A DNA stretch of 64,000 nucleotides from Chara braunii (Eukaryota; Plantae; Charophyceae), in contig BFEA01000020.1 in the NCBI GenBank assembly GCA_003427395.1, forward strand, positions 3,833,336-3,897,335, read 5' to 3'. The stretch's first letter is position 1, and the number at the start of each line of letters is the position of its first letter. Both the position numbers and the translations under genes were made by a program. Shown here piece after piece: positions 21,271 through 52,493 of the stretch. The notes under the pieces were generated by a model. It was not told the DNA's origin, made no database searches, and saw only the letters and a list, made by a program, of their open reading frames with translations.

Positions 21271-24200
21271 ATTAAAACATGATAGTAATAAAAATAAATA
21301 AATAAAAAATAATAATAGTAATACTGATAATAATTAAATATTAATAACGATAATAACGATAATAACAATAATTATAACAACTATAGTGAAAATAATTGTA
21401 TACAGGCTTATCTTCAACATACGGTGTCAGCGCGAATACCCTTACAAGGGTATCCGTCCCGGTTTTTGCAAGTGACAGGAAATGGTTTTGGTTTAAATTT
21501 AAGTATACCGCGCTAGGCGCGGCTGCGTCTGTGACTTACGTTGGCTGGATGGTTCACTATAATAAGGAGTGCGTGGGCGCGCAGGTTTAGGGCACGCGTG
21601 ATTCTTTTCTGTTTTTGATCATAAAGTCGGCGCGGACATCGGTCGTTTTGTTTAATGATATTATTATTATTTATTTATTTTTGATTAAGCAGGAATTAAG
21701 GCTATTTTCTTTGGATTGGTATGTTTGACCGAGGCGAGCGCGCGTGCGAGGACGACGACATCGACAACGACGGGGCGACCTTGTGCGGTGAATGGGGTGG
21801 CGTAGGATGGCGTGCGGGGCCAGCTACGACACGATTTGGGTAGGCCGGCGTAGATACCTAGCGGTCGTGGGTTTGGGTGTAGGTGGGGACAATGCCCAGG
21901 CCGTTTTTCGCGCCTAGGCACTGCGCTGCACCACCTTATATTGGGTTTCGCGCAGGCTAACTCTAGGTTTGGGCTTAGCCCTATAGGTTACGGCCTCGGA
22001 CTACTGCTACGAAAGATTCGGGGATCGAGGCCAGCGGGCGACTGCGCAGCGACGGTAGCGAAGCGTCGCGGAAGGGACCAATGGGGTTGAGGGCCGCCGA
22101 GGCTATCCCCCTCGGTTTTGTTTTCGGGCGCGGCAGCGGGCCCGATCCGCGGGACTGGCGAGGCGCCAGCAGCCCCGCGGTTTTCCTGATACTATTATTA
22201 TTTTACTTTATTTCCCTTTTGTGTTTTATTTATCGCGTCCCGCCCAGGGACGCGAGACGACGTGGTCAAAGTCCAAGTTCGTAATTGTGTTTGAGGAAAA
22301 AGAGGGTCGGTAACACTAATGGTATATAACCCACGTACCGGGTCCGGTGAGGTCACGCAGGGGTGTGTTGTATTTGCAGGGTGGTATGGGGTGCAGCCGC
22401 ATACTGTTTTCACGACTGTGTCGGGGTACCCCGTTATGGTATTCTGGGGATCCCCGTAGCAGCCACATNCGTGCTCGAGCCTTCAACGAGGGAACAGGCG
22501 GGGGCTGTACCCATGGGCANGGGGCGATAGGCGCTGTAATGGGCGGGTGGCACATGTCGGGGGCCGGCTGGTAGCGTCGGGCTGAGTCTTTGCGCTGGGC
22601 CGGCCACTGCGCCTCGCCTTCGGTCCCGTTCCCCTATGAANNCTGGCAGGTGGGGCGCTAAGTTAGTGATAGCAGCACTACGCAACAGGGGCGGGACGGA
22701 GTGATAGTGCAGCAGAGGAGGTGGCGGAGTAGTGNCGGGCACAAACGGGCAAGGCAGTGGGAGCNGGTGATCAGANAGGGGAAGAAGGNAAGGCGGNNCA
22801 GGGCGNAGCGGTGAGGGGGTGAGCTGAAGAAGAGATGAACCTGGCGTGAATTCGCGCCAGGTACATCCNAGGATAGGCACGGCGGAGCTGAGCATCACGG
22901 GTGAGGCNNAGTGACGGGGGCTAANGCGGTGGTGCACAGCGCTGCAGCGAAGCAGGGAGCGACGGGTAGCAACAAGGGAGAACAGCAGAGAAAAGGACGC
23001 ACCCGGACGGAAGAGTGGGTAAGGTACATGCAAATGGCGAACGAGCCATGGCGGATGAAGAGGGGAAGAATGGGTCGTGCATTCTCATTCCTCGATGNAT
23101 TTCAGCGGAGTAAAAGCTGAATCCATGGTTTGAAGGGAGGGCGAAACGAGTGGTAGTGTTAGATTTGGGGGAGAGTTGGTGTTTAGAAGGGAAGACGAAA
23201 AAGGTGGTGCGCCGGAACTATGTCGGGAGGAAGAAGGAGAAGGGGTGGGAAACGNATATCTCATGCGTTTTCGAACNGATTTCGGCGGGCAAAGAGCCGA
23301 ATCCACAATTTTTGGGTGAGGCGACTTCAATGGTAAGGTCAGATCGGGGAGAATATTAGTATAGATTGAGTTAGTAGTCAGAGAGGGTGCGCCGGGATAT
23401 GGGGGGAACGGAAGGGAAGAAAAGTTAGAAANGTGGACCTCGCNCGTTTCTNGGTGAAACGGGCGATTGAAGACACGTTTTTGAGGTTTCTTGGTGCTGC
23501 GAGTGTAATGGTAGCATTAGTTTTAGGAGATAGTTAGTAGATTGGGAGGTTAGATGAAAAAGAACTGCGTGAAGATATGGCGGGGATGAGGCAGGCAATG
23601 AAGATTTTTCTGTAGCCTGATTGTTCCTCAACTGATTCGGGCAAATCGATATGGATTCTGGGGATTTAAACGTCGGGCGACCCCAAATCCACAGTTAGAA
23701 TAGGAGGAAAGGGGTGGTAGGGAGGACTTGTAGAGAAAGGGGGGGTGCGCCGGGGCTATGGCGGAAGAGGGGGACGACGGGGAGAAGAGTCGAGTTCCTA
23801 TCCGATCCGCGACGGAATCGGGTGAAGCAAGTGTCGAGATAGGGGTTTTGGGGCGGCGTGAGCGTGATGGCGGTGTTAGAATTGGAGGTTAGTGGTTAGA
23901 GTTGGGTTACATTGGTGGGGTGCTGCATGTAAAAACGGGGGCGCGCTTTGAACAGGTAATGTATCTGTTCGTATTTTAGCCAAGGATTCATTCCCATTTC
24001 CTTTAAACTGCTAGTTGCGGCGTTGCCGTGCTCAAAGCAGTAATGGGCGCTGCTAATGTCACGATCACACAGCTCGCCGCCCACTCGGTTGGACTGCATA
24101 TTTGGGCTCCTTATCACAACCTTCGCAGTGATGCTGCAGGCAAGCAGTAGAGGTGGGGACTTACTCGATATCGGGTGCGGCGATTCTATTGTCAATGGAA

Positions 24201-25114
24201 AGCTCGCTCTCCCCATTTTGTGTGGGGTACGACAGCTTGGGCTCCCGACTGCATTTAGCGAAAGGCTCGCTCGATCTCGGCCATTGCCCCTGCGGGGACT
24301 TGCGGCACGCGGATAGTGTGGTTGGCCCTATTGATCGGTGCATTGCTCATCCCGTCCATAGCATGAGTCCAGCCGCGTGGCTGGAGATTTACCATCAGGG
24401 CTTGGACTGCAGTCTGTGAAGTCTGCATGAGCTTGCCTCGCTAGTGCGCCATTCGGTTCGATGGGGATGCCAGGGGAAGAGAGAAGCGATCCGTCGCGCC
24501 CTGCCGAAGGAAGTAGCGAGAAGTACGAGGCGAGATCGCAGACTNCCAGTTGGTAGNGACTGGGTTTATCNCGTTGGAATGACAAAGGGAGGGGATNACA
24601 AGTGTGCTAGATGACCAACCGGCCTANCCAGGACGCCGCTCACCGTACGGAGTGAAGTAGTNGCGGGCAAGGAGCGGGGTCTANGAGCTCGCTTATNGAT
24701 TGACGCGCTGCCCGGTTCAGTAAGTGAAGCANTGGGGAGTGNNNGNNGANGNNNNNNNNCNNNNNNNNNNNNNGNNNNNTNNCCNNNCNNNNNNCCNNAN
24801 GNANTNGNNGNNGNCNNNNNNNTNNNNNGNNTNNTTNNNGNCNNNNNNNNTNGGGNCNNNGGNNNTTNGNAGTGACTGCGATTGAGAAATGGGGGGGGGT
24901 ACTGTTGTGATTTGTCGTCAGAGAGTCAACGGTTGGAGGCTGGACTTCAATTGGCCAAGCTGCTGCAATTGTCTTAGCCACCATTGCGGGACCCTCCGGC
25001 GTTGAAGGTTTGAAGGCCCTCTCGTGCGAGTCTATGAGCACCCTTCTTGGATCCGAGAGTCTCGAACCCGCCTCCTTTGCTCTCCTCTTACTCTAACTCT
25101 AGTCTATTGGTTTT

Positions 25115-25247
25115 GAGAGGAAGGCGGCAGGCGGGATTGCAACCCGTAATCCGCGCCAAGGCCTCTGTGGGAGGTTCGCCCCACCGATTGCGGGAGCTCT
25201 GCCGGAACTCAAGAGGAGTTCTGGAGGCAGGGAACTCAGAGGTAATC
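25115..25247 (+). ncRNA. Conserved multi-hairpin element upstream of the hairpin array; also at 32065-32195 and 48669-48800
   Basis: GCGGG-ATTGCAA-CCCGT, GTGGG/CCCAC and CTGCC/GGCAG stems; GAACTC/GAGTTC versus GAGCCC/GGGTTC covariation between the families. Confidence 0.5.
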
Positions 25248-25502
25248 ATTGCTTTCCCTTATTAAACCCAGTACAACCCCTATCTATACATCTCCCTGTG
25301 TATTGACTGACTGTATTCTATGCGACCCTTAGTTTGACTTTGGATTGACTTTCAGGACACAAATCAGACCAACTAAAAGAATGTTTGTATAATGGCAATT
25401 TCAGTTTCTTGATTGTCTGAAGGCAGATTGTCACAAGGGGTTGCATCAAGGGGAAGGTTGGGATGAAGGCAGTTTTGTTTGCGATTGAATGCGTCTTATA
25501 GG

Positions 25503-26331
25503 GTCAGGCATTGTTTCTAAGATGAATGACCTGACTGTTATGTTTTGTTCTGTTTTCTAAAAAACCAAGCATTGTTTTTAGGATGAATGGCTTGGTTGCT
25601 GTGTTTCTTTAATTGTGTCAGGCATTGTTTCTAAGATGAATGGCTTGACCACGTATTTCTGAGGGGTATTGCTTGCTTGACTTTTGAGGGTCAGACATTG
25701 TTTCTAAGATGAATGGTCTGGCTGTTGTTTTACTTGGGTGGTTTCTGAACAGTCTCTTGGTCAGACCCAGGGTACTCTGTTTTTTTTGTGTGCTGAAAAA
25801 GGGAGAGCTGAGCATTGTTTCTAAGATGAATGACTCATCTCTCCTTGATTGTTTTTATTCTGAGGGAGGATTCAGGGCCAGACGACTAGACATTGTTTCT
25901 AAAATGAATGGTCTAAGTCTGAGGCCTCAGGACCATAATGAGAACGAAGGAATAAGATTCTCTATAATGTTGACGATATATGTACTTATATACGAACAAG
26001 GCTAGTCAGGCATTGTTTATAAGATGAATGGCCTGACTATAGCCTTATCACAAGCAAAGAGAGTATAATCAAGAGTTATAAGTGAAGGTAACTTGGGCCG
26101 ACTGAGCTTTGTTTCTAAGATGAATGGCTCAGTCCTACGCTCATTCTTGAAGATGGAGTTCAGAGAGGATTATATAATTTGACTACTTAAACAGTTTAGG
26201 GCGACTAAGCATGGTTTCTAAGATGAATGGCTTAGTCATATGCCCAATGAAGAGAAAAGTAGTTGTGTAACCTGTTCGTGTATAACTAAGGCAGAGGGCT
26301 GACATTGTTTCTAAGATGAATGGCCAGTCCC
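25503..26331 (+). repeat. Array of 10 hairpins with core CATTGTTTCTAAGATGAATGG
   Basis: Cores at 25509, 25570, 25623, 25696, 25813, 25891, 26011, 26107, 26210 and 26303, each closed by its own inverted repeat; spacers unique. Confidence 0.9.
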
Positions 26332-26516
26332 AATGCCCTATGTAAGCAGGGTATAAAGGGTTAAAACACTGAAAGACTATGAACTAATGTTTGTTAAGTC
26401 AACCTGGGGTTGGTGAGAGTACTTACCTTTGTGGTTTGGCTTGCATGTGGCTGAGTGGCATCACTGCCTAGTCTGAGTTTGAGTTGATAGGTAGTTGCTG
26501 TAGTGGCTTGCAACGT

Positions 26517-29500
26517 TGTCGGCACCAATACCCTTACAAGGGTAATTGTGCGTACTTCTGCACCTCGCAGGAGGAGCACTCTTGAATAAATTTAAGGAAG
26601 TAGCGTGTTTTTCGCTCGATCGTGACTGACTTTGAAGTCAGGGACGGCGGGCGCATGTATAAATTATTCAAAGAGTGTGTGGGCGTGCACTTTGTGGGCG
26701 CGCGTTAGTCAAATAGTGTGAACAGACGGACCGCTCAGCGGTCCAAGTCAGAAGTAAGCTAGGGGTTCGGATAGCGTAGCACGGGCCGCAGACTTCGAAC
26801 GTACTGACGGAGTCGCCACAGGCGCGAAGTTAGACCGTCGAAGCTATGGCTAGAGGAAAACTTTCGACTGACTTGCGGAAGTGCGGCATTTTGAGGCCGC
26901 ACCATGTGAAGTATGCAAGTACTACAATTGACTATAAAGGTATCGACGGTAGGAGCTGTAACAAAATTTAGCTAGGTACGACGCGTGGATACGGCGCGAG
27001 CAAAAGTCGGGGTCTTTCCGACCAAAGACGATAAAAGCATGCTCTTTTCGATGATACTGCGGGCTACAAGAGCCTCGGCCCGTGACCGCGGCATGGTGGG
27101 GAAGTGCGCATGGTAAACTCAGCAATAACCATCCTCCAAACAGAGAACATGGCCGTACGGGGCTTGGGCTCAAGGGGCAGACCAAGAGAAGGCGCTGGTG
27201 CACATTTGCAGGCCCGGATAGGCTGTAACAGCCTGCAGTTACTCTTCATATGCAGAACTGGGCCTGCTACAACCAGACTTGGGCTTAGCCCTATTGGTTA
27301 CAACATTGGATTTTCACCAGTGACGGAGCGAGGAGTGCGTTTGGAGATTAACTGAGGGGTTGAGGGTCCTGCAGGACTGTCCCCCTTGTTTTTGTTGGGA
27401 AGCCCAGCAGCGGGCCCGCGAGGTAGGACCAAGTACCAACGGTCCCCTCGCCGATCCGTTTTCATAGCTATTATTTCTAAATTTATTTTATTTTATTTTA
27501 TTTTATTTATTTATTTATTTATTTTCTTTCTCGTTCCCGAAGAGTTCTTGCGCACGATCTGTGAGTGGCACCGTGTGACCAGCAAAGTACCGATCCGCCA
27601 TCGCTGCAGACAGGCGAGGCCTTGTCTCTTCTGAGAAGGTACGGTAGTGTGATCTAAACCATGCCCGAAAACCTCAAGTTCGGCCTATTCCAAATCTGCG
27701 TTTTTCGTAGGTATGGAGTCGCAGTGTGAGCCTCCCCGGTGGGACTAACAAGATGGTGAATTGTGACGGGGCCATGCGGTACCACAGGGAGTGTCAGTAG
27801 GGGCCCGCAGCAATACCGCTGCCAACCATCCATCGGACCTAGGTATAGGGCGGAAGGGTAGCCAGACCACCAAGTAGCAGGTTCCCTCAGTAGGTCTCCC
27901 TCGGGGTAGCTGGAGCTGTGGAGCTGTCTTACTGCACAGCAGTGAGGCCAAACCCCGGCAGGAGGGGGACTGTGGTGACTTCTGCATCTGGTAGCAAGAT
28001 TGGCCAGGCAAAGAACCAGCTGGCCCGCTCAATTGGTACACCCATGAACTGTTGAAAATACAGACTCGAGTCTGAAGTTCAAATGAGGCAAATAAACAGC
28101 ATGCCCTACCCAACTGAGTTGCCGTTCCCTTGTTTTTGGCGTTACGGGACTTGATCCATAGGCCTATAGACTAGTGTTTTTTTTTTTGTTTTTTTTTTTT
28201 TGACAAAGTCAGGCCTGTTCAATTTTATTATTATTATTATTATTTTATTATCATAGGTAGGCCGTAGGTTTGGAACCCTCTTAGTTTGGTTTTCCATCTA
28301 GGTACGTGTAGGCAAATTTTACAATGAAGTCATAGATGTTTGTTGTCTGGACGACCAGATAGGTCGGTAGGGGACTGCCGTGAGGTGGGGAGAAGAATCA
28401 AGTAGAAAAGGGGGCGGAGGTCGACGGTCTTGAGGTTCACCTCGCTGCTCTTTCTGTTCGCAGTCCTAGTGGAGAGTGCGCTGTTTCTCCGCTACGCTGA
28501 ATACGGGCATGTACACGGGGTATCCACCACGTTGATTGCGGCCATAGCTAAGGCCGCGCGGCTCCACTAGCAGCAGCGCCGGACTCTGCACTCAAACCAA
28601 CAAGGCTGCATTGACTGAAGGAAGGAGTGAATCTGGACGCATATCTGCGCCAGGTGCATTCAGAGGAACGAACGAAATTGATGAAGAAAGGAAGGATGTG
28701 TATGCCAAGGGGGCGAGAAATATACAACTGGCTCGTTTCGGAGTAGATCTGAGTAGCGAAAAGTGCCTTGAAGGAGCTTTTTGACGGGCGAATGGAATGG
28801 CAGCCGGAGTTTGGTGGATCGGAGAGTGTATGGGGGAGTAGAGGAAAAAGAGAGCCAGCGAAAGTGTCGAGGGAGACAGTGAGGAGAAAAAAGGGGGTAG
28901 ATTTTGATTATCTCGGTCGTTCCTTGGTCATTTTGAGCAAACTAAGACTCTAAACTAGGGTTTTTAGACATGGCGAGTCAGTCTGTAGCATCAGAATTTG
29001 ATTTTAACAGGTCGCATGGCAGGTATAAGGATTAAATACTGCGCAGGGTAATGAACCTGGTCACTTTTTAACGGGAGATTCGTTCGCATTTTTGCACACT
29101 AGGAGAATAGCAGAACATGATCGTAGCTGCGCACCATTACCCTCACTCTCAACAAGGAGGGGAATTGAATCTGACCATGGGTCTGCGAGAGATGCATTCG
29201 GAATAGACAAAGAAAATGGNGGAGTAGAGAGGAAAAACCAGCAAGNGGATGGAAGAGCTCGTAACTCACCCGTTTCCTAACANAACTAGGTNGAGGAGAG
29301 CACTACTCCAACGTTTTTGGGTAGGGCGAGTACAGTAGTCACGTTAGTTTTGGCGTTAGTATAGTGGGAAAGGAGTTAGAAGAAACAGAGGTGCGCGGGG
29401 CAAGGGGAAAGTGACGAGGAGAAAAGCCAGAAGAGGATGTGTGACTATGGAAGAGGAAGCAGGGAGGGGGCAAGGTAAAAGAGCCCGAGGTTCGCAGTGA

Positions 29501-32500
29501 ATTGAGAGGGAAATAAAGAAGAAGGGTCGAGCTTACCTGGTCAACTACTACCATGTGTCGTTCTGCGCCAATATGCAATGTATCTGGCAAAGACCTGGCG
29601 GAAGATCCGTCTTCTTTTCTTTCTGTGAGAGGAGCCTCGTTATTGCAGTCACGAAGCCGCGCATGCTTGAAGCCGCTATATTACCTTCATGGTTGTGGAT
29701 CGAGATTGCAGTACTCTTCAGTACGCTGATGATCATCGGGCACTATCGGAAATGACTGTGTCGCTTGTAATCGCCGTCGTCAGGACCACGATCATCGGGG
29801 ACAACTATTTGCTATCCTATCTGTGCAAGTAAGGACAGAGAAAGAAAGCTCACCTTTATCGTTTTCAAGGATCATGCTGAATTTTGCTCGAGATTTCGGG
29901 TGTATCCCCCTGTGTTCAAGCGGGAGATCTATTCGCATTCGGCACGACTGATACATGGGCTGCGTGGAATGCATCCTCCCATGTTCTAGTGGAGGATTCA
30001 TTCACGTTTACAGTGAATGAGGGAAGTTATGGCATGCTCGCCTCCCCCATCTGATTGGCAGGCTGCCCGTTGTTACTATCCCAGAGGGATTGTTGCATTC
30101 GCTTTTTCAGGGTCATTACGGTCCTAATGGTCGCAATACCTATCTATGTCGTACTGGAACCCACAGTTTTCTGAGTGCTCGTTATCATTGCCCTTCGTAC
30201 TCGTCGTCTAGCTCGTCATAGTCATTTTCGCGCCTGTTACTGATTCTCTTTCCGGTTCATTCCCACTTCGCAGATTTGGTAAGTAAGTATTGCGTGGAGC
30301 ACTCAATATGGCACCTTACTCATGGTTACTTAGATATTGTTCATAATCCTAAGCACACTAGTTATCACAATCCGGTGAAGCTTGCACTGCTCATTGCGGG
30401 GCTTGAGAAGGAGGGAAGGAGGATTACGCTAACAAAGTGTGCAGATGATGAAAAGCGAGAAAGAGAGGGGGGAAATGAACTCACGAGGTTCAAACATATC
30501 AAGGACTGATGAACGGTTGTGGCTAGTGGGTAGAGTGAGTTGCCTGCCTAAATACGTTAATAAGTGGGGCTTCTGTTGACAGAGGGAACTCACGAGAGTC
30601 TGAGACAACTGAGATCAACGAGTTGTTAACTTTTACTTGACCCTGGGAGGGTTGATGCTAGTAGTGTTGTTGCCCTTTGATGATCAGGCTGCGATCTCAA
30701 GCTGTCGTGTACACTGTCGAACTCCCACAGGTGTTTATCTTGATCTGTGTGTTGCCCTTTGTTCAATCCATTGAGATCACCGTAATGGTTTAGCAGGCGT
30801 GTTTGGCCTCGTCACCCTACTATCCATAATCAATTATGCGGTTGTTTAGCGGTTGGGTCTGATTGTCACTGCCAAGATTCCCACAGTCATTATCAGGCTT
30901 ATATTTAGGTGACTCGCTAAGAGTGAGTCAGTTGGAGTTATATTTGTTACTCAGGTGCTGCCGTTTTCTTGGGTCAAGCGAGACTACGGATTGACCAGGC
31001 AGACGATATTGGTGTCCTTTTCAGTCAAATGTCCCCAATTGTCTCAAGTGATTGCTGCTATCTGCGGTGCATGGTCGCTGTGTTTACCACTGAACTACAG
31101 ACGTGGTGAGATTATTAGAAGGGTTTGTTGCGCAGTAAAATGGTGCTGCTACTGTGAACCAGTACTTGCGGATGGGCAGGCTCCTAAATTGTTGTGATCT
31201 ACCCAAAATAAGCAGACTGCCACTATCGGGCTGTTATTTCGGGTTGCTACGACATATAAAATACTGTTCTCTTGAGCTTTGAGTACGGATGCTACTATTG
31301 TAGTCCCTGGTGACAGCAGTAGCTACTTACCATATTAAAAAGCGATCGTTTCGGGTTCTTTTGTAAACAACTACCTACTGTGGAGCTGTTGTGCATTACA
31401 ACACCGCTGCTAACGTGGTGCTGACCTGAAGGTTATCGCTGTGAGAGTTTGCTGTGCTACAACTTAGTGGACTTCGATTGCTATGTTTCGGGGCTGCTGA
31501 GGCGGTAGCAGAGTGTTGGCCTCGTGAGTGCATAACGTCGAACTGCTGTGTGTTTTGACGGTACTATTGGCTGGGTAGTTTGTGGCACTCCTGCTGTGGG
31601 AATTCGGCTCCTTATTATTGCACAATTGTTGTGTCTTCATTGCGCTTTTGTCATATGCTGTTGGAACGGCTGTGCATTTGATGTGCACGCTGAATTCCTT
31701 TTTTGAGTAGCACTGTGTTTCGCCTACAGTCTGAATAGAGCACGTGGGTGTGCTTCATTTGAGTGCATCTTTAATAGGTTGGGTAGTTGTAGTTGGATCG
31801 AGTTTGAAGCATTGAGATTTCGAGGAGTGACCTGACTCTTTAGAGGAGCCGTTGCTGCAACTTGGGATCGTCAGAGAGCCAATGGCCAACTATTTTACTT
31901 CAGTTTGATTGGTGGCTGCGCGTTTTGGCCGCCATTGTGGGGCCCTCAGGCGAACCAAGATTTCAAGGCCCTCTCATTGTGAGTTGAGTTGTCCCACCTT
32001 TGGGTCTCGAGAGTCTGAACTTTCTTTCGATGTCCTTCCCACTCTCAGTCTAGTCTAAGGTGACGAGAGGAAGGCGGCATGCGGGATTGCAACCCGTAGG
32101 TCTGCATTAAGACCTTGTGGGAGGTCCACCCACCGATTGCGGGAGCTCTGCCGGAGCCCAGGCGGGGTTCTGAAGGCAGGAAACTTCAGGTATACCTTCG
32201 TTAACCTGTGTGACCCCTTCCCTTAACCTTTATCCTTGGGCTACTTGAACACAGCTATGTGAGGTTATTACTTCTTACTTTTGTTATGTATGTGAGAACA
32301 TGCTCTGCAAAAGGTTTAATAAACACTTATATACGAGAAAAGTCAGATACTTTGAGCGAATTCAAATAGCATGAATTGGGGGAAGGCGAGAGGAAAATGT
32401 TCTGTATGCGTTTGACCGGGTCAACCCAAGGCTGAGCCCCTCCGGGTGGATGGGGGCTAAGTGCTGTGTTTTATTGAGGTTTGCTGATCTGAATGAGTGA

Positions 32501-35500
32501 CTCTTATGGCTGGTCTACTGGGTGGGATAGGATCAGTCGCTGTTTTATATGAGGGTTTCTGAACAGGAGGACGGGCACCCTGGGTGGGGAAGGCTCAGAA
32601 TCCTGGTGTTTATTTTAATGAGTTGCGGTGTGTGTTTTCTTCTGAGGGAGTAACGACATAAGACTAAGCGTACCCTAGGGTTAGGGCGGCTTAGCCATGA
32701 GCCATGAACTAAATGGTCAACCAGAGTATAAAACTTGATATATATACAATTTGAACTTATACTTCTGACAGACCGGGCGCCCCGGGTGGGGAAAGCCAGT
32801 CAGTAAGTCAGGTAGAACTAAGGAAGAGGGAAAGAGATGAAGAGTAAAACAAAGGTAATTGGGCAGACTGAACGTACCCTAGGGTTAGGGCGTTCAGTTA
32901 TATGCTCATGATAACACTAAGGAGCAGAGAGTTAGTATAAATCTGTTCTATTTTCCCTTCTAAACATGAGGCAGGATCGGAAGTTCCATTATTGGAAAGG
33001 TCCGATCGATTGATTAATAAGAGAAGGAAAAACATAAAGTCTGTGAAAGTATTTGTACCATATTTCATGTTGTATGGCTAACTAGGCGTACCCTAGGGTT
33101 AGGGTAGCCTAGCGATAAGCCTTTGTCGTTTAAAGTAAGTTGGAGGTACCCTAGGCTTAGGGCGGAGCACTGTTTTTGTGTTTAAGCCGTTCAGGCAGAT
33201 CAGGCACACCCTAGGGTTAGGGTAGCCTGATCACAATGCCTTATGTAACTTAAACTGTATGGCTAACTAGGCGAACCCTAGGGTTAGGGCGGCCTTATAA
33301 TATGCCTTTGTCGTTGATGTGCTGTGGGTTGGACGTACCCTAGGGTTAGGGCGGTTCAACTTTTTGTCGTTTGTACTTATGTTCAGGCAAGCTAGACCTG
33401 CCCCTGGGTAGGGATGGTCTAGAATGATGCCGTATGTAACTTTGTTTAAAGCACACTGGGCACACCCTAAGGTTAGGGCAGCCCAGTCCTATGCGCTTGT
33501 TGTCAGTTAGGCATATGCCTTATGTGTATAGTTCATGTTATGTTGGGCACACCCTAGGGTTAGGGCAGTCCAAATGTGCGTGCCTTACTTGTGTACCTAG
33601 GCAGGTCAGGCATACCCTAGGGTTANNGCCTTGTCTGACCGTATGNCATAGGAAAGGGGGATGTAAAAGGGAATAACGAGGTTTTTGAACGAACTATGAG
33701 GTTGAAAGAAACCTGAGGGTTAGTGAGAGATGTTCGTTGTGATTGTTTGTGTGTGTGTTTGCGGGCTCTCACTCTGGGGCATCTTTTGATAGGATTAGTT
33801 GCTTTAGATGCTCGCTGAGTGCTGGAGCCATAGACAGATAAGATGGATGATGGAAGAGAAGCTTAGGATAAAATAGGACTTGACAGTCTAGGATTTAGGA
33901 TCAGTGTTAGCTCACGCTCTCATCTAGAGGTCGTGCAGACTATCGCTGATTCTACCTTTCAAAGTAAGCGTCAGAAGTTAGTCCCAAGTATAGTTTTGCT
34001 TTGTTTTCCTATTTTCAGCTTTGTATAAATCTTGGCAGCCTCCTTTTCCTACGGGAAGCGCTGCCGAAATTTCTACAAATTTGAAGAGTTAGTCATTTTT
34101 GGGCTTTCAGAAATTTTGAAAAGGCACTTTTCCTACGGGAAGCGCTGCCGAAATTTCGTAGAATTCGAGGAGTTATTATAAATTTCTGCTAGGAGAAACT
34201 TGACAAATCCACCCAGAGTAGGGGAGATGCTGCCGAATTTCTCAGTGACTTGGCACTAGTAAGGGAAGCTGAGCAAGAGATTAATAGAGGGGCTAGGATA
34301 CGAGCTAGAAAGTACTCTCCATGTGGGGTAAACGTAGTAGTGGTTCTTTTTGGCCTGTACTGTGATGCAGGTCTCTGTGATTCGACTGAAGGCTTGATCT
34401 GACCAGCATAATCCTATTAAAGATTATTCTTCTGTTATCGTTGATAACAGGTCGGTTGCCGATTCGTCAGTTTACGACTCAACTTTCCTACTACTTCTGC
34501 TTCTCAACCTAAGGTCTTGACCCTTGCTGGGTTTTATGTTTTCTTGGGTTTTTCTGTAAATGGTCATTTCTTTAAGGACTGAGTATCTTTGTTCTGGAAA
34601 GGTGGGAAAAAGGTTGGGCTTGTGTGCGTAAGGCAGGGTGTGAGATGCAGAAGACTGAAAAGTTGACCATTTTAGTGTGTGTCATGTCGTTTGAATTCTG
34701 TGTGTGATCGCAATTATGTGTGGAGAAACCTCTATAAAGTTTGGTGATTGGTTGTGAATTGGATTGAGATGGGCAAATCACACAAATGTCGTGAGAGTGA
34801 ACTACCACATAAACTCTTTGTTTGATTGCGATCGGACTTTTCCTATCCTGATTCTTTGATAGTCAAAGTAGGCGTACGCTCGGATAACCCTCACAAGGAT
34901 ATGCGACTACACGCTTACGGCCCTCTTTTACTCTTTGATTTTATATGGTCGAACGTTAGTCTCAGGTCCTAGGTTCGTGGCTGAAAAGATTACCCTTCGC
35001 ACAACTCTGACTTACTTACTTTCCTAGGAAAACAGAAGCGTCACGAGAAGGAGGGACTGACCCCCAGCACCTCGGTCCGGCAGATCATTCATGTCTTCTT
35101 CTGCTAGCATCAAGCGCCCCTTTTCTCTTTCCTTGTCCAATTTGTTTTGGTGGAAGGATAAAGTTCAGGGCGGAAGGGTTAGCGTGTCGCTGGTGATGCG
35201 CCAGACAACTCACCACCGCTCCGACTCCCTTCCTGCCTTAGGGACCATCTTACCTCGCACCCCCTGGGACACCTCAGGGTGCTGAAGACGGTAAGGCCCT
35301 CAGACCGTTTTTTGCGCTCGCTAAAGGTTTGCCCCCTTTAGCGTGCACTTTAGCCGACGCCTGAGCGTCGAGAGCGACCCCATGGCTTAAACGAGCCACT
35401 CGGGTATGGGCACTACATGGTGCGCCGACATCACGATTGCTTACACAAATCCGTATTGTTGGTCGGTATGCGAAAGTCCAGTGTTCGCGTGGCCTTATGT

Positions 35501-36737
35501 TAACCCGCGCGCGTGACACTTACCGATTTCCGCATCTGAAAGTTATGGGTCAAGCAAAAAGGGCAAAGGCGCATTATGGCTAGTATGCCCGAGTTTCGAT
35601 AGCGTGAAACGGCGCGTGGGCGAGATATCAATCCCAGTCGACGTATGGGGGTTCTCGTACGAGCCTCCAACGCCTCGAACAACGGGTTGCCTATGGGTCC
35701 GGCTTTGGGCACCATCCGCACGCATCTCGCGGGTTGGCCTACACCTTCTTCTTGAGACTACTATCAGACTATGAGCTAGACAGAGAGATGAAATAGGGCG
35801 ATCCTCCCTTTCTATCTGCAGTTGTTTCCTCTTTTAAATTTTCTTGGTTGAACGTTGTAGTCCATAATAGCCGCCAAAGTCAAACCCCTTGATTTTGGCT
35901 ACCACGACAACTCTGAAGTTGTCTACTCAACCCCTCTGCATAGGGTGCAGAAGAGGGTGTGGTCTTCAACCGCACATGGCGGTTGTCTGGCGTCGAGAGA
36001 TTACCCCTCAAAGCGCCTGTCAGCCGATACTTGAGTGTCGAACGCGACCCTCGAGATTATCAAGGGCCGCAAGGCTACGAGTACCACATAGTACCCCATC
36101 AGCGCAAATGTTTGCGAATGTCCACACGGCTGTCGATATGAGGAGGTCATGAGCACGCACGACTCTTATGCAAAAGTTCAGCGCGCGATGCCTACCTGAT
36201 TCTCGCAGCATGAAGTTATAGGTTGGATACTGAAGGGACTAGGAGTGTTGTGATGTTATGTTTGTTTTGTGTTTTTCCATGTGTTATGTGTGGGTAGATG
36301 TGAGTGTTGTGGTGTAACGCGTGGTGTGTGTGATGCGTCCTAGTCGACCGGCGCCGAGTCGCGTTTGGGACCTCAACCCCCCAGTACGTCGATTGGTGTG
36401 CGGGTTCGATATTTCGGGTGTTCAACCGCGCGTAACCCCCTATGCTACAGCGAACAAGAAACGCCCTCGGCTGGGCCACCTCTGCAATTGCATACGAAAA
36501 GTTTTCGCATGTGGTTCGGTAGCTCGGCAGGGACACGCCCACCTAAGGGATAGAGACAGCTCCCTCAGGTGGAGGTAAAGCGGTGCCTCGCGTGACTCTG
36601 TCCTGTCACAGGGACTCGCGAGAGGTACGGCTGGCGCACTCGGCCGGAGCGGCACCTCGCTCTCCTCGATGGAAGTCCTGCCAAATCCTGCGTGACGCGG
36701 TCGGGAGGGTCCCCTTGCGAGACCGATGCGCTCGACA
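26517..36737 (+). mobile_element. Nested ~10.2-kb solo LTR of a sister family
   Basis: Same terminal motifs (TGTCGGC..AATACCCTTACAAGGGT / GACCGATGCG..CGACA); TSD ACGT/ACTT (1 mismatch); the empty site ACGT is present in the 3' LTR at 50071; colinear homology blocks with the host LTR; no PBS seen. Confidence 0.8.
32432..33640 (+). repeat. Array of ~16 hairpins, ~10 with core CCCTAGGGTTAGGG
   Basis: For example GACTAAGC..GCTTAGCC (32662), GATCAGGC..GCCTGATC (33198), GTTGGAC..GTTCAAC (33328), ACTGGGC..GCCCAGT (33454). Confidence 0.88.
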
Positions 36738-39006
36738 ACTTGCTATAGTTACAGGAGTTAGACTCAATTTCTGCATTTCTTGTGATAAGCTTTTTTTACT
36801 TTGTTCGATTTTTACATTTATCTAAAGTATTTTCTCATACTTGGCTTTGTATAAATCTTGGTAAGCTACTTTCCCTACGGGAAGCGCTGCCGAAATTTCT
36901 GCAAATCAAAGAGTTAGTCAAATTTCTGACTTTTCAAAGTTCAACTTGTCTAAGATTCGTATATGACTTAGTAAAAATCTGGAAACTCTCATTTTCTAAA
37001 GAGAGTGCTGCCCAAATTTTTGTTAATTCAGGGAGTTAGACAAAAATTGGAGTTTGGAAAGTCAAAGACCATTTTTGGTTTCATATTCGGACTGATATAA
37101 ATTCTAGAAAGACACTTTTCCTACAGGAATCGCTGTTGAAATTTTTTTAGTTTAAAGGAGATAGATTATATTTTGACAGGTGGCGATTCTGGCGATCCAC
37201 CCTGAATAGAGGATATTCTGCCATTAGTCTACCTTTGCTTTGGGCACTGGCTTAGAGGTAGACTTAGACTTGGTTGGCAGATAGTCGTGAGTGAGAATGT
37301 GTTTTGGAGTTCTATTCTCCAAGGGGTTATAGATTTTAGCTTGGGCATTGGCCTGTCTTATGGTACAGGTCTTTCTTGAACGCTCGATTCAGGACTTGGA
37401 CTAGCTTCAGCTCGATCCTACAAGGATCATCTTCTGTTATCACTGATAACAGGTCGGTTGCCGATTCGTCGGTTTACGATTCAACTCCAATTCACTCCTG
37501 TCACTCAACCTAAAGGCTTTAGCCTTGTGATTGAACTGTTTTGTTGTGTTTTCACCCGGACTTTATTGAATGGTCATCCAACAAAAGTACTGAGTATTTA
37601 TTTAAGAGTTGCACGAGTGAGGCTTGTATGGCTAAAGCGAGGGGTATGAGTGCTAGGAATGGTTGAAGTTGNNNNNNNNNNNNNNNNNNNNNNNNNNNNN
37701 NNNNNNNNNNNNNNNNNNNNNNNNNNNNNNNNNNNNNNNNNNNNNNNNNNNNNNNNNNNNNNNNNNNNNNNNNNNNNNNNNNNNNNNNNNNNNNNNNNNN
37801 NNNNNNNNNNNNNNNNNNNNNNNNNNNNNNNNNNNNNNNNNNNNNNNNNNNNNNNNNNNNNNNNNNNNNNNNNNNNNNNNNNNNNNNNNNNNNNNNNNNN
37901 NNNNNNNNNNNNNNNNNNNNNNNNNNNNNNNNNNNNNNNNNNNNNNNNNNNNNNNNNNNNNNNNNNNNNNNNNNNNNNNNNNNNNNNNNNNNNNNNNNNN
38001 NNNNNNNNNNNNNNNNNNNNNNNNNNNNNNNNNNNNNNNNNNNNNNNNNNNNNNNNNNNNNNNNNNNNNNNNNNNNNNNNNNNNNNNNNNNNNNNNNNNN
38101 NNNNNNNNNNNNNNNNNNNNNNNNNNNNNNNNNNNNNNNNNNNNNNNNNNNNNNNNNNNNNNNNNNNNNNNNNNNTACTCAACCCCTCTGCACAGGGTGC
38201 AGAAGAGGGTGTGGTCATCAACCGCGCATGGCGGTTGTCCAGCTTCGAGAGATTAACCCTCAAGGCGCGTGTCAGCCGACACTTGAGTGTCGAATGCAAC
38301 CCTCGCGATTAACGGGGACCGCGTGAGTATGGGTACTACGTAGTACGCCATCATTGCGACTGCTTGCGTATGCTTGCATTGCGAGTCGATATGAGTTAGC
38401 CCTCCGTTCGTGCGGTTTTATACTGAGTCTCGTGCGCGATGCCTATTCGATTTCCGCGTCGGGAAGTTATGGGACGGCTGCTGAAGGGACTAGGAGTGTT
38501 GTCGCGCTGTTCGATGTGTGTGTGTGTGTGTATTTTATTTTTTTGTGTTCGTAAAGTGGTGTGCGTGTAGTGTGTGAGATGCGTCCTAGTCGACCGACGA
38601 AGAACCACGCTTGGGACTTCAGCCCCCCAAGATTTCGGTTCGCGTGTGGGCCCGATAAGCGTATTACTGCGCGTACCCCCTATGCTACAGCGAACGAGAA
38701 ACGCCCTCGGCTGGTCCGCCTCTGCGATTGCAACCGAGTAGCTTTCGTACTGTGGACTGGTAGCTCAGCGGGGATACGCCCACCGAAGGGAGGTGACAAC
38801 TCTCGTAAGGTGGAGGTAAGTTGTGCCTCGCGTAGGCCCTATCCTGTCGTAGAGGCTCGCGAGAGGTATGGCTGACGCACTCGGCCGGAGCGGCCTAAGG
38901 AAGCTCCATTTGTGTGTTCGCGGCAAGGTTGGTCCAACTCCTGCGTGACGCGGCCGAGAGGGTCCCGCGCTGCCACGTGTGGTGCCGGACCGATGCGCCC
39001 GATAGG

Positions 39007-39025
39007 TGGCGCTGTTGCCGGGGAT
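39007..39025 (+). promoter_or_regulatory. Primer binding site, tRNA-Asp
   Basis: TGGCGCTGTTGCCGGGGAT versus the Athila-type TGGCGCCGTTGCCGGGGA, 2 nt after the LTR end. Confidence 0.88.
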
Positions 39026-40228
39026 AACGGTTGCCTACCGTTGTCCCTGGTGAAACGACATCCGGGTATTGGAATGTGAGAAATAGGCAAATTAAGAAAT
39101 TTCTTTTGACGTTCATGGTTAATCGATTGTTGGTATTGGATAGAGACCAAGTGAGGGGTGATTGTGCGAGTTGGTTCTATTCGGTGCAGTAAGGGTGCCA
39201 CGAAAAGGGTAGGCTTTGACTATGCGCCCACGTACGTTGACTACGTGCACACGTACTTCGACTATGCACTTGCGTAGTTTGACTAGTATGACGGTAGTTG
39301 GAGTTGACACCTCTTCTGACACCGATAGTTGATGGGTTTGGGCAATGAATTGCATGTTTGATACAACTAAGGTAGGATGAGGTGGCATCAGCAAAACTAA
39401 GTATGGATTGTGGGATTTGGCCGTGTAAGGTGCCCATAATGGCTAAGGGAAGTTACCCGAGCGGTCAAGGATGCAATATAGCACTTTGGTTTTAGGGTGG
39501 GGCATAGAATGAGTAAAGGAAGCCTACTGGGTTAGAAGTCGTTAAGGGACTTCGAGGAGAGTTAGGCTACGGATATTGAGAGTTTGTACGAGTATGAATT
39601 GGGATCCTGAAATTTGGGTTCTAAGTAGTTGCTCGAGTTGTATGGCCATAGAAGTATGAGGCTTGCTCCGCATGGTATGTTTGAAATTAGGCGTATAAGG
39701 CAGTAAAGACATGCAGTGAGCACCGTGGTAAGGCCGCAATAGAAAGGACTACGAGAAGTAGTAGACCTGTATGGCGCCTGATAGTGGAGGGTATATCATG
39801 TTATTTATGGTAGACCATTGCGTTGAGCCCCTTCTAGGGTTGGACCATCCACTAGAATCTATGAGTTGGAACTAAGGACCTGAGACTAATCGTCTGAGGG
39901 CATTTCTATTTAAGTTATATGTTGAACTCGGTCCTATATGCCGGATACTGTCGGAGTAAGCTTGCCTAGTGTCTGATCGTGTGAGGCTATGTACTTGGTG
40001 ATTATAGTCCTTTGATAATTATCCTTGTCAGAAATATTTATATAGGTTATGCATCTGAGGTATGCATTTGAATTATCAGTCTGTCAGGATTTATGTGAGC
40101 ATCTCGAGTCCAATTATTAACCTATGGGCGTTTATATGTGTTTGGACTGCTCCTCAAATAAGAGTAGAGATGCTAGAACGTGATTATTAGCATGGTAATG
40201 GAAGGCGCATGCTGGACGTTTGTTTGTG

Positions 40229-40834
40229 ATGGGCAGAGCCCAGACGGAACTAAGGCAACTCAGGATGCCTTACGCACGGGAAGACCCGCGTATGCTCGGG
40301 CCAATTGAGAAAGAGGGAGGGCTCGAGGTATCTTTACCTAGGCGGGTCAGAGCAGGAGAGCACCACTCTTCATGGTGGGGAATGTCGATGGGTACGGACA
40401 TCTTTGTCTGGATCGAGTCTGGGTTCGATGACGAGCAGGAGTGTGCGATTGTAAGGGTGACGCTGTACGCCTCGCCCTCATTCTGGATCGAGCATGGGAT
40501 AGAGTTGGCGCTTGGACATGGGAGCTTGCTTACTAAGCCTTTGAGGGTAGCCGAGGCAGCCGCGGCAAAGTGGGCGAGGGAAGTGTCCCGTGATGGGGAA
40601 GAGCGAGTACTAACCCGCGTAAGGGTCGAGCGCGCTGGGGAGTTCGGACTTCCATCTGCCCCGCTACGAGTAATCCTGCCTAACTTCCTCGTAGAGAAGA
40701 ACTTTGGTGGACATGCAAGAATAGAAGAGGCAACTGAAGCCGCTATGAAGGTGCGAAATTGGGAGTATGGGCACTATAAATGTGAACTGATATATGGTCT
40801 GTACTTAGACTCGAAGTTCTCGCCTTTTAGGTAG
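40229..40834 (+). CDS. Intact internal ORF of unknown function (~200 aa)
   Basis: Open frame with globular-looking composition inside an otherwise stop-rich internal region; no motif recognised. Confidence 0.45.
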   Translation: MGRAQTELRQLRMPYAREDPRMLGPIEKEGGLEVSLPRRVRAGEHHSSWWGMSMGTDIFVWIESGFDDEQECAIVRVTLYASPSFWIEHGIELALGHGSLLTKPLRVAEAAAAKWAREVSRDGEERVLTRVRVERAGEFGLPSAPLRVILPNFLVEKNFGGHARIEEATEAAMKVRNWEYGHYKCELIYGLYLDSKFSPFR

Positions 40835-41180
40835 TGGCTTAAGACTACGGCCAATATGGTTGACATATATGCCGCTTCTCATTATCTGAATGAGGGAAAT
40901 GTAGACTGGGAGGAAATCCGGGCAGCAGTGGGCCGGTAGGGATTGCCTTTTCCTCCACAAAATGCGCTTGTTTTGACTTGGCTATGGTCGTCTCTTTACC
41001 CATTACCGTAGTTATAAAGGTAAGCGTCAGGATAACCGAGGGTTGAGGCCTGATTGCATGAGTAAAAGCGTAGGTAACGTGATTTGAGTGTTCGCAGGTT
41101 GCCTTTGTCTGCCTTAACTTACTTGAATCACTTTTTGATGATTTGTTGCCCGCTACGCGTATCAGGTTGCTGTCAGCATC

Positions 41181-42395
41181 ATGGCAGAAGAAAGCGGCTT
41201 CGCCAAGGTCCTGCGTTGGAAAAATTCGTGCCAGCTGAAGGTGTTGTTGTGCGAGGCACTGCAAGAGTCAATGCCTCCAGACCTCCATGCTCTGTTGTTC
41301 CAAGGAAGAAACTTGTCTTACTTTCTGCGGGACTTTCAGGACTTTAGCCTTGCAAAGGAGTGGAACAAGAAGGCGATGTGGTGTATGTTTCCCTTGTTCG
41401 TCTGCGAGAGGCTAAGTGAGGAGGTGTATACCCTCAAGCAGGAGTCGAAAATATGGGATGAATTGGTGCATTCCTTAAGGCTAAGATTCCCAGAAGACGG
41501 AGTGGAAGGTCCACATGGGGAATGCTCCGTGCCACCAGTTGCGGGCCCACCGTCGCAGGCGGAGTTAAGTGGGTTACAAAGGCAAGTAGGGGTATTGGAG
41601 GAGAGGTTAGAATGGCTAGAAGAGGCGAGGAAGGGTAAGCGGAAGGTTTCAGAAGACTCCCCAAGTAAGCCGACTGGCCAAGGCGAAGGAGGAGTACAGA
41701 AGGGTGACCAGGAATCGCCCCTCTCGATAGGAATCCCAAAGAGGCAAGTCAGTGTTCAAGCAAGGGACAAAGGCAAGAGAGAGGATGAGATAAAGGAGGA
41801 GAATGGACCTCTCAAGTTGACAAAGGCGCAGCGGAAGGCGAGGAACCTCGCTCAGGGGGGTCAAGGTACCGAAAAGGGACAGAGTTCGCAGCAAGTAGCG
41901 GCTACCCCGCAAGAGGGAGAAGGCGAGGCAAGACCAAGGGGGCCTCCTCTGATCGAGCAAGCATTACATAGGCAGTGGACGCCGGGTAACCGAATGAACT
42001 TGTGGCCGACATACAACCCTTATATGCCTTGGGCGCAAAGCAATTATATGGGCCATTGGACGAACATGATGCCCCGTGGGCCCCCGCCAGTCCAAATCCA
42101 ACCTGTCGGACCGTTGTGGTCACCAATACAGCAAGCTTCGCAGGACAGTATGACAGGTGGAAGGGGCCAAAGGCAGGCAGTTGGAAGGGGCCGAGGAGAT
42201 GGCGGGCGTGACACTACGGGCCGAGAAGATGGCGGGCGTGGCACTACGGGCCGAGGAGATGGCGGGCGTGGCAATACGGGCCGTGGAGACGGTGGACGCA
42301 GCAATAGAGGCCGTGGGAATGACAGGCAAGGCGCTGAAGGTCGTGGCGGGAGCCAGCGAAACCATAAGTGGGGCTCAAAGAAGAAAGGGGCATGA
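41181..42395 (+). CDS. Gag-like protein with coiled coil, P/Q-rich segment and RGG-repeat tail
   Basis: FQGRNLSYFLRDF...W...WDELVHSLRLRF capsid-like N-terminus; LQRQVGVLEERLEWLEE heptads; GRGDGGRG repeats (30-bp units, ~42187-42320). Confidence 0.65.
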   Translation: MAEESGFAKVLRWKNSCQLKVLLCEALQESMPPDLHALLFQGRNLSYFLRDFQDFSLAKEWNKKAMWCMFPLFVCERLSEEVYTLKQESKIWDELVHSLRLRFPEDGVEGPHGECSVPPVAGPPSQAELSGLQRQVGVLEERLEWLEEARKGKRKVSEDSPSKPTGQGEGGVQKGDQESPLSIGIPKRQVSVQARDKGKREDEIKEENGPLKLTKAQRKARNLAQGGQGTEKGQSSQQVAATPQEGEGEARPRGPPLIEQALHRQWTPGNRMNLWPTYNPYMPWAQSNYMGHWTNMMPRGPPPVQIQPVGPLWSPIQQASQDSMTGGRGQRQAVGRGRGDGGRDTTGREDGGRGTTGRGDGGRGNTGRGDGGRSNRGRGNDRQGAEGRGGSQRNHKWGSKKKGA

Positions 42396-52373: not shown

Positions 52374-52493
52374 ACGGTGCAGTCAAAATCAGGATGCGGT
52401 ACATTTGGCGAAATCTTGTTAGTCCCCTGCTAAGCCTGCTTCACCTATCGGGTTGATCCCTCGTCGAGGTCACGGTGGGTGCTTGTTTTCATC

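What the first reader, a model, noticed from the sequence alone, without database searches (positions are those of the whole stretch)
25503..33640. Homologous LTR hairpin arrays whose conserved core was swapped as a set between sister families
Seen: both LTR families carry a hairpin array at the same position, just after a shared structured block. Spacers and stems are alignable between families (e.g. GGTTTCTGAACAG; TTCTGAGGGAG..GACTA; AAGGTAA.TTGGGC.GACTGA..CAGT..TA.GCTCAT). Yet every family A unit shows CATTGTTTCTAAGATGAATGG, while most family B units show CCCTAGGGTTAGGG. Other LTR motifs (CCTACGGGAAGCGCTGCCGAAATTT, the termini) are unchanged between families. Inference: plain tandem amplification would homogenise stems and spacers as well, so the core looks separately selected or converted. 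It may be a family-specific address displayed multivalently, such as a Gag/packaging signal, an anti-silencing protein docking array by analogy with VANDAL/VANC motifs, or a small-RNA decoy. I do not recognise a described LTR element with this architecture.
Basis: partly seen in the sequence, partly recalled or inferred. Interest (0 to 1): 0.9.

Follow-up and report, generated by a model that had tools for sequence, protein, structure and literature searches.

The report
Rewritable-loop hairpin arrays in giant LTRs
Related jumping genes of the alga Chara carry, at the same spot in their very long terminal repeats, a row of 10-15 predicted RNA hairpins whose stems stay in place while the tip sequence differs from one relative to the next, which likely makes the row a multi-site docking address for the element's own capsid protein, an untested function.

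Summary
The window holds a gag-only Ty3/Gypsy-like element of Chara braunii (family A, 7.2-kb LTRs) with a 10.2-kb solo LTR of family B inserted in it. Both LTRs carry a hairpin array behind a shared conserved block. With cores masked, flanks align in order across families (z 4.7-5.2), better than A's units align with each other. A third LTR from a public contig (L001) carries a third tip: eight UAAGUU loops on covarying stems, one intermediate unit, one exact A core and one cleanly deleted core. So tips change in place, and tip identity follows family only roughly. The three tips look homologous (stem-loops with compensatory changes), not swapped from unrelated sources. B's distal nine units include ordinary tandem amplification. 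Folding favours the sense RNA strand for A and L001, not for B. Stranded poly(A) reads are sense, peak on the block and fall after a conserved splice-donor-like site, which would confine the array to full-length genomic RNA. Best reading (0.5): a multivalent RNA packaging or docking signal kept by selection and homogenised by copying. The partner is untested; only three LTR types were compared.

The parts
21425..39004 (+). 5' LTR of element A (TGTC...GATA), interrupted by the B solo LTR; 4-bp target duplication ACGG at 21421-21424 and 52374-52377
25115..25247 (+). Conserved structured block (family A), ending in a splice-donor-like AG|GTAAT (GT at 25242-25243); no Rfam match
   Evidence: donor inferred
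25503..26330 (+). Family A array, 10 hairpins; predicted tip TTC-TAAGAT-GAA above a 5x2 internal loop, on unit-specific outer stems
26517..36737 (+). Solo LTR of family B, 10.2 kb (TGTC...GACA), target duplication ACGT/ACTT; the empty site is seen in A's 3' LTR
32065..32195 (+). Conserved structured block (family B) with donor-like AG|GTATAC (GT at 32190-32191)
32430..32900 (+). Proximal B array, b1-b6, GGGT loops; b1, b2, b4, b6 are positional homologues of A units U1, U4, U6, U8
33070..33640 (+). Distal B array, b7-b15, with tandem copies of a ~185-bp three-unit block; copy number varies among genomic copies
   Evidence: joints of 184-192 nt
34048..34156 (+). CCTACGGGAAGCGCTGCCGAAATTT repeats shared by both families (also 36874, 37120, 50207, 50454)
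39007..39024 (+). Primer-binding-site-like 18-mer two bases after the 5' LTR; recalled as tRNA-Asp type, not tested
   Evidence: tRNA identity recalled
40199..40834 (+). Extra ORF of unknown function upstream of gag; a candidate second partner protein
   Evidence: no family found
41142..42395 (+). Gag-derived ORF: capsid-lobe-like domain, coiled coil, RG-rich tail; no zinc knuckle seen in this copy; no + strand frame of 75 aa or more between 42409 and 45159, so no intact pol
45212..52373 (+). 3' LTR of element A, about 7.2 kb (includes a 470-N gap); about 95% identical to the 5' LTR outside the U3-like part
49057..49885 (+). Second copy of the family A array (10 units)

Best explanation
The arrays are rows of predicted RNA hairpins inside the long terminal repeats of Chara Gypsy-like retrotransposons, and they likely act on the full-length genomic RNA as a multi-site docking signal for the element's Gag (or a helper's Gag) during packaging. 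Shown: the positions, stems and spacers are inherited from a common ancestral LTR, the stems covary, and the tips differ among three LTR types (A: UAAGAU; L001: UAAGUU; B: GGGU). Inferred: the array lies downstream of the transcription start and of a splice-donor-like site or poly(A) site, so mainly unspliced full-length RNA would carry it. Inferred: selection keeps each stem paired and the loop matched to the partner; a new tip arises in one unit and is copied into the others by short template switches or conversion in the replicating lineage, so the address can change without rebuilding the scaffold. Not tested: any binding, the partner, and co-evolution with Gag.
For: Covariation with a fixed loop: in L001, 8 of 8 C-type units have TAAGTT unpaired in the local minimum-energy fold; over 9 units 93.8% of cells pair, 8 of 9 pairs change on both sides, 0 of 500 shuffles reach the score, and slid controls give 16-58% (structure derived from these same sequences). 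Positional homology: A-L001 gives a clean diagonal of 8 pairs (z 3.3-11.2; 0 of 3000 permutations); at position U6 three different 20-nt tips sit between the same stems. Tips are exchangeable in place: L001 has one exact A core, one intermediate and one precise deletion. Strand: sense-RNA folding z -7.2 vs -4.2 (A) and -7.4 vs -4.0 (L001); G-U pairs 24 vs 4 (L001) and 36 vs 10 (A); with DNA parameters L001 units fall to z -1.8. Family majority letters in DNA run X1 restore the tips where this copy has decayed (49371, 49671, 49133-49143; 33156, 33470, 32519). Stranded reads X7 and X9 are sense over the block (31.8 vs 1.7; 69.6 vs 0.2) and, relative to DNA depth, 4-12 times lower over the A array. 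At the donor-like site 5 of 5 listed loose ends from DNA or DNA-like runs keep AG-GTAA, while 6 of 8 from X6, X7 and X9 keep AG-G and then differ (only the best-supported rows are shown, and three of the six are one sequence). The element encodes a Gag-derived protein.
Against: No binding or packaging data. Family B shows no sense-strand advantage (proximal array z -0.3 on + vs -2.3 on -; G-U 11 vs 11). The tip does not strictly track family (mosaic L001; two sub-types in B), and L001 could be an A/C recombinant. Retroviral packaging signals lie around or after the primer binding site, whereas this array is 2.5-3 kb upstream of it. A's own protein has no zinc knuckle and seems to keep only one capsid lobe. 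No transcript start, end or splice joint was mapped (table 6 empty and no RNA joint among the rows shown). X8 shows a DNA-like profile with an excess of the opposite strand. Reads on the arrays are few. The two LTRs of A differ as much in loops (5 of 60) as in spacers (28 of 491), so nothing acts on this copy after insertion. Only three LTR types were compared; B and L001 have no linked gag here.
Confidence: 0.5

Rival explanations
1. The array is an RNA docking platform for a host or accessory RNA-binding protein (nuclear export, intron retention, stability or localisation of the unspliced RNA, as retroviral CTE and RRE elements do; recalled), possibly the extra ORF1 product, not Gag.
For: All structural and strand evidence fits equally. 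The array follows a donor-like site, and the element has an unexplained extra ORF.
Against: A conserved host protein would not favour changing loops among sister families; three different tips were found.
Confidence: 0.2
2. The cores are double-stranded DNA sites for an element-coded anti-silencing protein (VANC-like) or host factors; the B core would be a telomere-repeat or telo-box-like site for TRB proteins.
For: Short motifs in one orientation at high density that change together between families, as for VANC targets (PMC5735166, passages). The B core holds TAGGGTTAGGG and the palindrome ACCCTAGGGT (8 copies). TRBs bind telo-boxes and Charophyceae appear in the TRB tree (PMC12616469, passages).
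Against: A DNA site does not need unit-specific complementary arms or G-U pairs biased to one strand (A, L001). A and L001 cores have no telomeric motif, 5 of 15 B units lack it, and the full telo-box AAACCCTA occurs only 3 times in the window. VANC motifs spread with whole tandem repeats, while A's flanks are not repeats.
Confidence: 0.13
3. No function: hairpins arise by template-switch correction of quasi-palindromes, and tips are homogenised by neutral conversion and slippage during reverse transcription.
For: B's distal units are plain tandem copies. In A's 3' LTR unit U7 has a double change at the pair next to the core that matches neighbours U4 and U6, as a conversion tract would give. 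No excess conservation of loops after insertion.
Against: Palindrome correction makes perfect Watson-Crick stems, yet G-U pairs are kept on one strand. In L001 only the 6-nt loop is fixed while even the closing pair covaries (A-U 6, G-C 3). Unit positions persist across LTRs whose masked flanks match at only about 55-70%.
Confidence: 0.1
4. The hairpins are sources or decoys of small RNAs, as proposed for Sirevirus LTR palindromes.
For: Sirevirus LTRs hold about 7 palindromes in a hairpin-forming siRNA hotspot (PMC4728375, abstract and passages).
Against: Stems here are short and interrupted; the conserved part is the unpaired loop, whereas Sirevirus arms are more conserved than the centre. 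No small-RNA data were examined.
Confidence: 0.07

Closest known systems
Repetitive structural motifs (RSMs) of coronavirus genomic RNA, e.g. the gUUYCGUc hexaloops of SL5 (PMC8206606, abstract read)
   Same: Several stem-loops with a fixed, lineage-specific loop on variable stems near the 5' end of a genomic RNA, proposed to mediate capsid-protein binding.
   Different: 2-8 copies in an RNA virus; here 10-15 inside an LTR, with the tip rewritten at homologous positions and a mosaic intermediate.
Retroviral Psi and Ty1/Ty3 packaging determinants (PMC5035971 and PMC4974528, passages)
   Same: Structured 5' leader RNA bound by Gag; selects unspliced RNA; loops with an exposed G (that retroviral NC binds such loops is recalled).
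   Different: Those have a few distinct stem-loops near the primer binding site; here ten or more equal tips lie kilobases upstream of it, within the LTR.
Sirevirus LTR palindrome arrays, maize Ji/Opie (PMC4728375, abstract and passages)
   Same: A repeated, hairpin-forming motif in multiple copies in an LTR, differing among families.
   Different: Copia, not Gypsy; upstream cis-regulatory half of the LTR; perfect palindromes with conserved arms; here arms vary and the loop is fixed, downstream of the transcribed block.
VANC target motifs of VANDAL transposons (PMC5735166, passages)
   Same: Family-specific short motifs, many per element, changing together.
   Different: Double-stranded DNA sites in a DNA transposon, spread by whole tandem repeats; the word 'hairpin' does not occur in that paper's main text.
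TR-GAG non-autonomous LTR elements (PMC4350172, abstract read)
   Same: LTRs, primer site and gag, but no pol.
   Different: TR-GAGs are under 4 kb with one ORF; element A is about 20 kb with 7-kb LTRs and an extra ORF.
Non-chromovirus Ty3/Gypsy lineages, Phygy and OTA (PMC6317226, passages)
   Same: 4-bp NCGN target duplication (as Phygy); very large LTRs and an extra ORF (as OTA).

Membership tests
LTR retrotransposon (Ty3/Gypsy-like) | Paired LTRs with TG...CA ends and a target-site duplication | tested here: met
   TGTC...GACA, ACGG on both sides; the 5' LTR ends GATA by one change
LTR retrotransposon (Ty3/Gypsy-like) | Gag capsid domain | tested here: met
   Relative P0009 residues 328-421 match Arc, PEG10, Ty3 and retroviral capsid lobes (best Z 8.1, rmsd 2.7, 79 aligned); its first domain, the one shared with this ORF, aligns to that lobe (24%, E 6e-6); Atlas leads 0.83-0.86 are Gag-type; Pfam found nothing
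LTR retrotransposon (Ty3/Gypsy-like) | tRNA primer binding site and polypurine tract | tested here: inconclusive
   An 18-mer of recalled tRNA-Asp type follows the 5' LTR, not compared with Chara tRNAs; no clear purine tract directly before the 3' LTR
Ty3/Gypsy lineage (Phygy, Athila, Tat) | RT-RH-INT order and phylogeny | not testable with these tools
   No pol frame in element A; no genome held to find autonomous partners
Phygy | Insertion preference NCGN | tested here: met
   ACGG and ACGT, 2 of 2 insertions
Phygy | Short element, polyprotein spanning the internal part | tested here: not met
TR-GAG | gag without pol | tested here: met
TR-GAG | Length under 4 kb, single ORF | tested here: not met
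   about 20 kb without the B insert; two ORFs
Repeated-hairpin packaging signal (RSM/Psi type) | Repeated stem-loops, fixed loop, covarying stems | tested here: met
Repeated-hairpin packaging signal (RSM/Psi type) | Present on the packaged genomic RNA strand | tested here: inconclusive
   Sparse sense reads over the arrays; start, end and splice joints not mapped; B shows no sense folding bias
Repeated-hairpin packaging signal (RSM/Psi type) | Binds the capsid/Gag protein and is needed for packaging | not testable with these tools
   needs binding and particle assays
VANC-type anti-silencing array | Motif spread as part of whole tandem repeats | tested here: not met
   A's flanks are not repeats of each other; met only for distal B
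VANC-type anti-silencing array | Element-coded protein binds the double-stranded motif and removes methylation | not testable with these tools
   no methylation or binding data
Sirevirus palindrome array | Perfect palindromes with conserved arms | tested here: not met
   Arms vary and loops are fixed; only B holds a 10-bp palindrome
Retrozyme / known ribozyme-bearing LTR | Match to a known self-cleaving ribozyme family | tested here: not met
   Rfam over 21000-53000 at E up to 1 gave one unrelated weak hit

The most novel reading that the evidence does not exclude
These LTRs carry a rewritable RNA address: an ancestral scaffold of about ten stems whose tips are overwritten unit by unit when a new loop arises, in step with the RNA specificity of the family's Gag, so sister families and gag-only parasites compete for, or wall off, each other's particles. 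L001, with eight C tips, one intermediate, one A tip and one blank, would be a sweep caught in progress.
Probability: 0.3. Interest if true: 0.88.

Novelty: new variant of a known kind. Interest (0 to 1): 0.7.

Why it matters
How plant LTR retrotransposons pick their own RNA for packaging, and how non-autonomous elements keep access to a helper's particles, is largely open (own knowledge). Here is a natural series of homologous hairpin scaffolds with three loop types and a mosaic, which makes a cognate versus non-cognate binding test straightforward. It also shows concerted evolution limited to a ~20-nt hairpin tip within non-repetitive flanks. If function fails, it remains an unusual case of tip-only homogenisation in very large LTRs.

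Tried and rejected
No genome is held, so the genome-wide table of core versus Gag could not be made. Pattern scans: metagenomes 0 hits with a 32-nt pattern, 7 loci with a 19-mer of which 1 (L001) is a true relative and 6 are unrelated; viral contigs 0; prokaryote genomes 0. Tandem Repeats Finder reports neither array. Rfam: nothing relevant; the block's four-sequence consensus fold has almost no covariation signal (term -0.12), so its structure is unresolved. DNA joints that seem to link A cores (sides of 21-36 letters) were not used: a shared core alone can produce them. Two RNA loose ends after the donor-like site have no match in the window at 3 mismatches, so no acceptor was found. No indexed RNA run was listed as holder, which says nothing on expression. 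X8 was left out of the expression argument because its profile follows DNA. Single-sequence fold of the A Gag domain was poor (pLDDT 54); Foldseek on P0009 gave nothing at E<=0.001. ORF1: no Pfam or Atlas hit. Whether L001 is a recombinant could not be settled: identity to A is 82%, 92%, 70%, 69% and 83% along five segments, but the last segment is also the best kept between A and B. Literature: ten searches found no description of such arrays in Chara or other LTRs; the Chara genome paper did not appear in the listings and supplements were not read.
Full report
Setting. The ORF at 41142-42395 matches 19 predicted proteins, all named Chara braunii, one at 100%, so the window is very likely from this charophyte alga. 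Self-comparison and end inspection give the anatomy. Element A has a 5' LTR at 21425-39004, a primer-site-like 18-mer at 39007, 6.2 kb of internal sequence and a 3' LTR at 45212-52373, flanked by ACGG. A solo LTR of family B (26517-36737, flanked by ACGT/ACTT) sits inside A's 5' LTR; the empty site is present in the 3' LTR. A's LTRs are 94.5-95.1% alike in three segments and 99.2% in the U3-like part, which may be an assembly fill since N positions are shared. A and B LTRs are colinear homologues, with 13 blocks at 63-83%. The internal region has an unexplained ORF, a Gag-derived ORF and no pol frame. Both target sites fit NCGN, reported for Phygy elements (PMC6317226, passages).

The observation. 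Every unit is flanked by its own complementary arms: cognate arms fold at -14 to -19 kcal/mol against -10 to -12 for swapped arms, reached by 0, 1, 12 and 2 of 20000 permutations for A1, A2, B and L001. In A, 20 core columns are 8-10 of 10 identical and the flanks drop to 3-8; unit-to-unit flank z within A is at most 3.8. Across families, with 26 nt masked, four ordered pairs score z 4.7-5.2. So flanks resemble their counterpart in the other family more than their neighbours, and cores do the reverse. Limits: six A units have no clear B partner; only two of B's six proximal units carry the full B core; the distal nine include tandem copies of a ~185-bp block (71% repeat; b7-b10 z 7.7-10.4; 184-192-nt joints in DNA run X1).

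A third LTR. A 19-nt pattern found seven metagenome loci; six are unrelated and one, L001, is a 2.3-kb piece of a related LTR. Its array has eight units with loop TAAGTT, one with TAAGAT on a C-like stem, one exact A core and one unit whose core is cleanly gone, with the stem closed. Ten TAAGWT words lie where letter shuffles give 0.84 (maximum 6 in 2000). Eight units pair in order with A's U1-U8 (z 3.3-11.2; 0 of 3000 permutations); two have no A partner. In all eight C units the hexaloop is unpaired in the local fold. Over nine units, 8 of 9 consensus pairs change on both sides and 93.8% of cells pair (the structure was derived from these sequences, and some units are near-duplicates). At position U6 three different 20-nt tips lie between the same stems; at U8, A and L001 share the A tip and B has its own.

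What changed between families. In structural register the tips are A TTC-TAAGAT-GAA, L001 TCT(A/G)-TAAGTT-(T/C)AGG with variants, and B CCT-AGGGTT-AGG. A and B differ by eight transitions in twelve columns and keep all three inner pairs; shifted by one base they are 7 of 14 identical with 5 transitions. A central purine-purine-G-(A/U) stays. I infer one ancestral hairpin tip that diverged and was then copied across positions; 'swapped as a set' is better put as 'rewritten in place'. Ten identical 20-mers in A need copying; a fixed 6-mer on differing inner stems in L001 points to selection. Loops and spacers decay alike between A's two LTRs (5 of 60 vs 28 of 491), so both forces act in the replicating lineage, not on inserted copies. 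Majority letters in X1 restore the tips at positions where this copy has decayed (only the 40 best-supported rows of 842 and 350 are shown).

RNA or DNA. Whole-array folding favours the + strand for A (z -7.2 vs -4.2) and L001 (-7.4 vs -4.0), with G-U pairs 36 vs 10 and 24 vs 4. B does not follow: z -0.3 vs -2.3 and G-U 11 vs 11. B's core also holds a 10-bp palindrome and a telomere-like TAGGGTTAGGG, which leaves a DNA-level or dimer-forming role open for B alone. In the stranded poly(A) runs X7 and X9 first mates lie on the - strand over the block (31.8 vs 1.7; 69.6 vs 0.2), read as sense RNA if the library is of the usual type. Per 100,000 units of X1 depth the signal is 30 and 66 on the block, 8 and 5 on the A array, and 2.4 and 2.5 further down; for B in X9, 79, 35 and 1 on block, proximal and distal array, the middle figure resting on a handful of reads. 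X1 depth is not a copy number, and the block is shared by many families. X8 follows the DNA profile with an opposite-strand excess and was not used. Just after the block lies AG|GT in A, B and most genomic copies (48796 reads G in 99% of X1 depth). Listed loose ends there keep GTAA in 5 of 5 rows from X1, X5 and X8, and lose it after AG-G in 6 of 8 rows from X6, X7 and X9, which suggests partial splicing. No joint, start or end was mapped, and a TATAAA-like word 20 nt further on could be a TATA box or a poly(A) signal. Under either reading the array falls in the leader of full-length RNA; that step is inferred.

Mechanism. The best reading is a multivalent docking signal on genomic RNA for Gag (0.5). 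A host or accessory RNA-binding protein (0.2), a double-stranded DNA site of VANC or telo-box type (0.13), neutral hairpin conversion (0.1) and small-RNA decoy (0.07) are the rivals. That the hairpins were selected as single-stranded structures is much firmer than the identity of the partner.

Known systems. It works most like lineage-specific repeated hexaloops proposed as coronavirus packaging signals (PMC8206606, abstract) and retroviral Psi (PMC5035971, passages), but binding, the defining feature, is untested. Among LTRs the nearest are Sirevirus palindrome arrays (PMC4728375, abstract and passages), which conserve arms, not loops. VANC motifs spread with whole tandem repeats (PMC5735166, passages). 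Element A resembles TR-GAG in coding content but fails its size criterion (PMC4350172, abstract). Ten library searches showed no report of this architecture; the library lacks most subscription papers. Unchecked notes of this scan describe same-loop hairpin arrays in retroelements of other genomes, so the array itself may be a recurring design; the in-place change of loop among sister families is the distinctive part here.

Verdict. Real, likely functional, a new variant of repeated-hairpin RNA signals; interest 0.7.

Noticed in passing
window 17848-17885: A sequence recalled as the Nextera mate-pair junction adapter ends a 650-bp near-copy (17211-17856) of A's 5' LTR: likely an assembly artefact, not a third copy.
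   Followed up: partly
window 25115-25247, 32065-32195, 48669-48800; L001: The conserved block is among the most abundant parts of the LTR in DNA run X1 and the peak of sense poly(A) reads. It holds a GTGG-loop hairpin whose stem covaries among variants and a hairpin with the palindromic loop word TTGCAA, a possible dimerisation site. No Rfam match; fold unresolved.
   Followed up: partly
window 21814-24741 vs 45367-48294: 99% identity with shared N positions, against 95% elsewhere in the LTR pair; probably one copy filled from the other. This U3-like part has low depth in X1 (5-103 over 47010-48483), so it is subfamily-specific.
   Followed up: partly
window 43850-43990: 54-bp tandem repeat in A's internal region with two small hairpins (CATAAGCAG and CATAAGTTG tips), one resembling the L001 loop.
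   Followed up: partly
window 40199-40834 and proteins P0009, P0019, P0021: Relatives carry a second capsid lobe and in some a knuckle-like Cys/His stretch that A's protein lacks, so Gag in this group varies in domain content; ORF1 upstream has no known family.
   Followed up: partly
window 35275-35549: Diverged internal duplicate (63%) of the conserved LTR 3' part, present in B only.
   Followed up: no
window 57823-59305: Three to four copies of a ~435-bp repeat at 82-85% identity inside another retroelement-like region.
   Followed up: no
window 5000-10200: Decayed non-LTR (RT-like) element with ~700-bp direct terminal repeats (4985-5688 and 9531-10203, 88.5%), reminiscent of Penelope-like elements (recalled).
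   Followed up: no
window 430-470 and 1395-1470: U6-like fragment and a tRNA-like SINE sequence, judged by eye.
   Followed up: no
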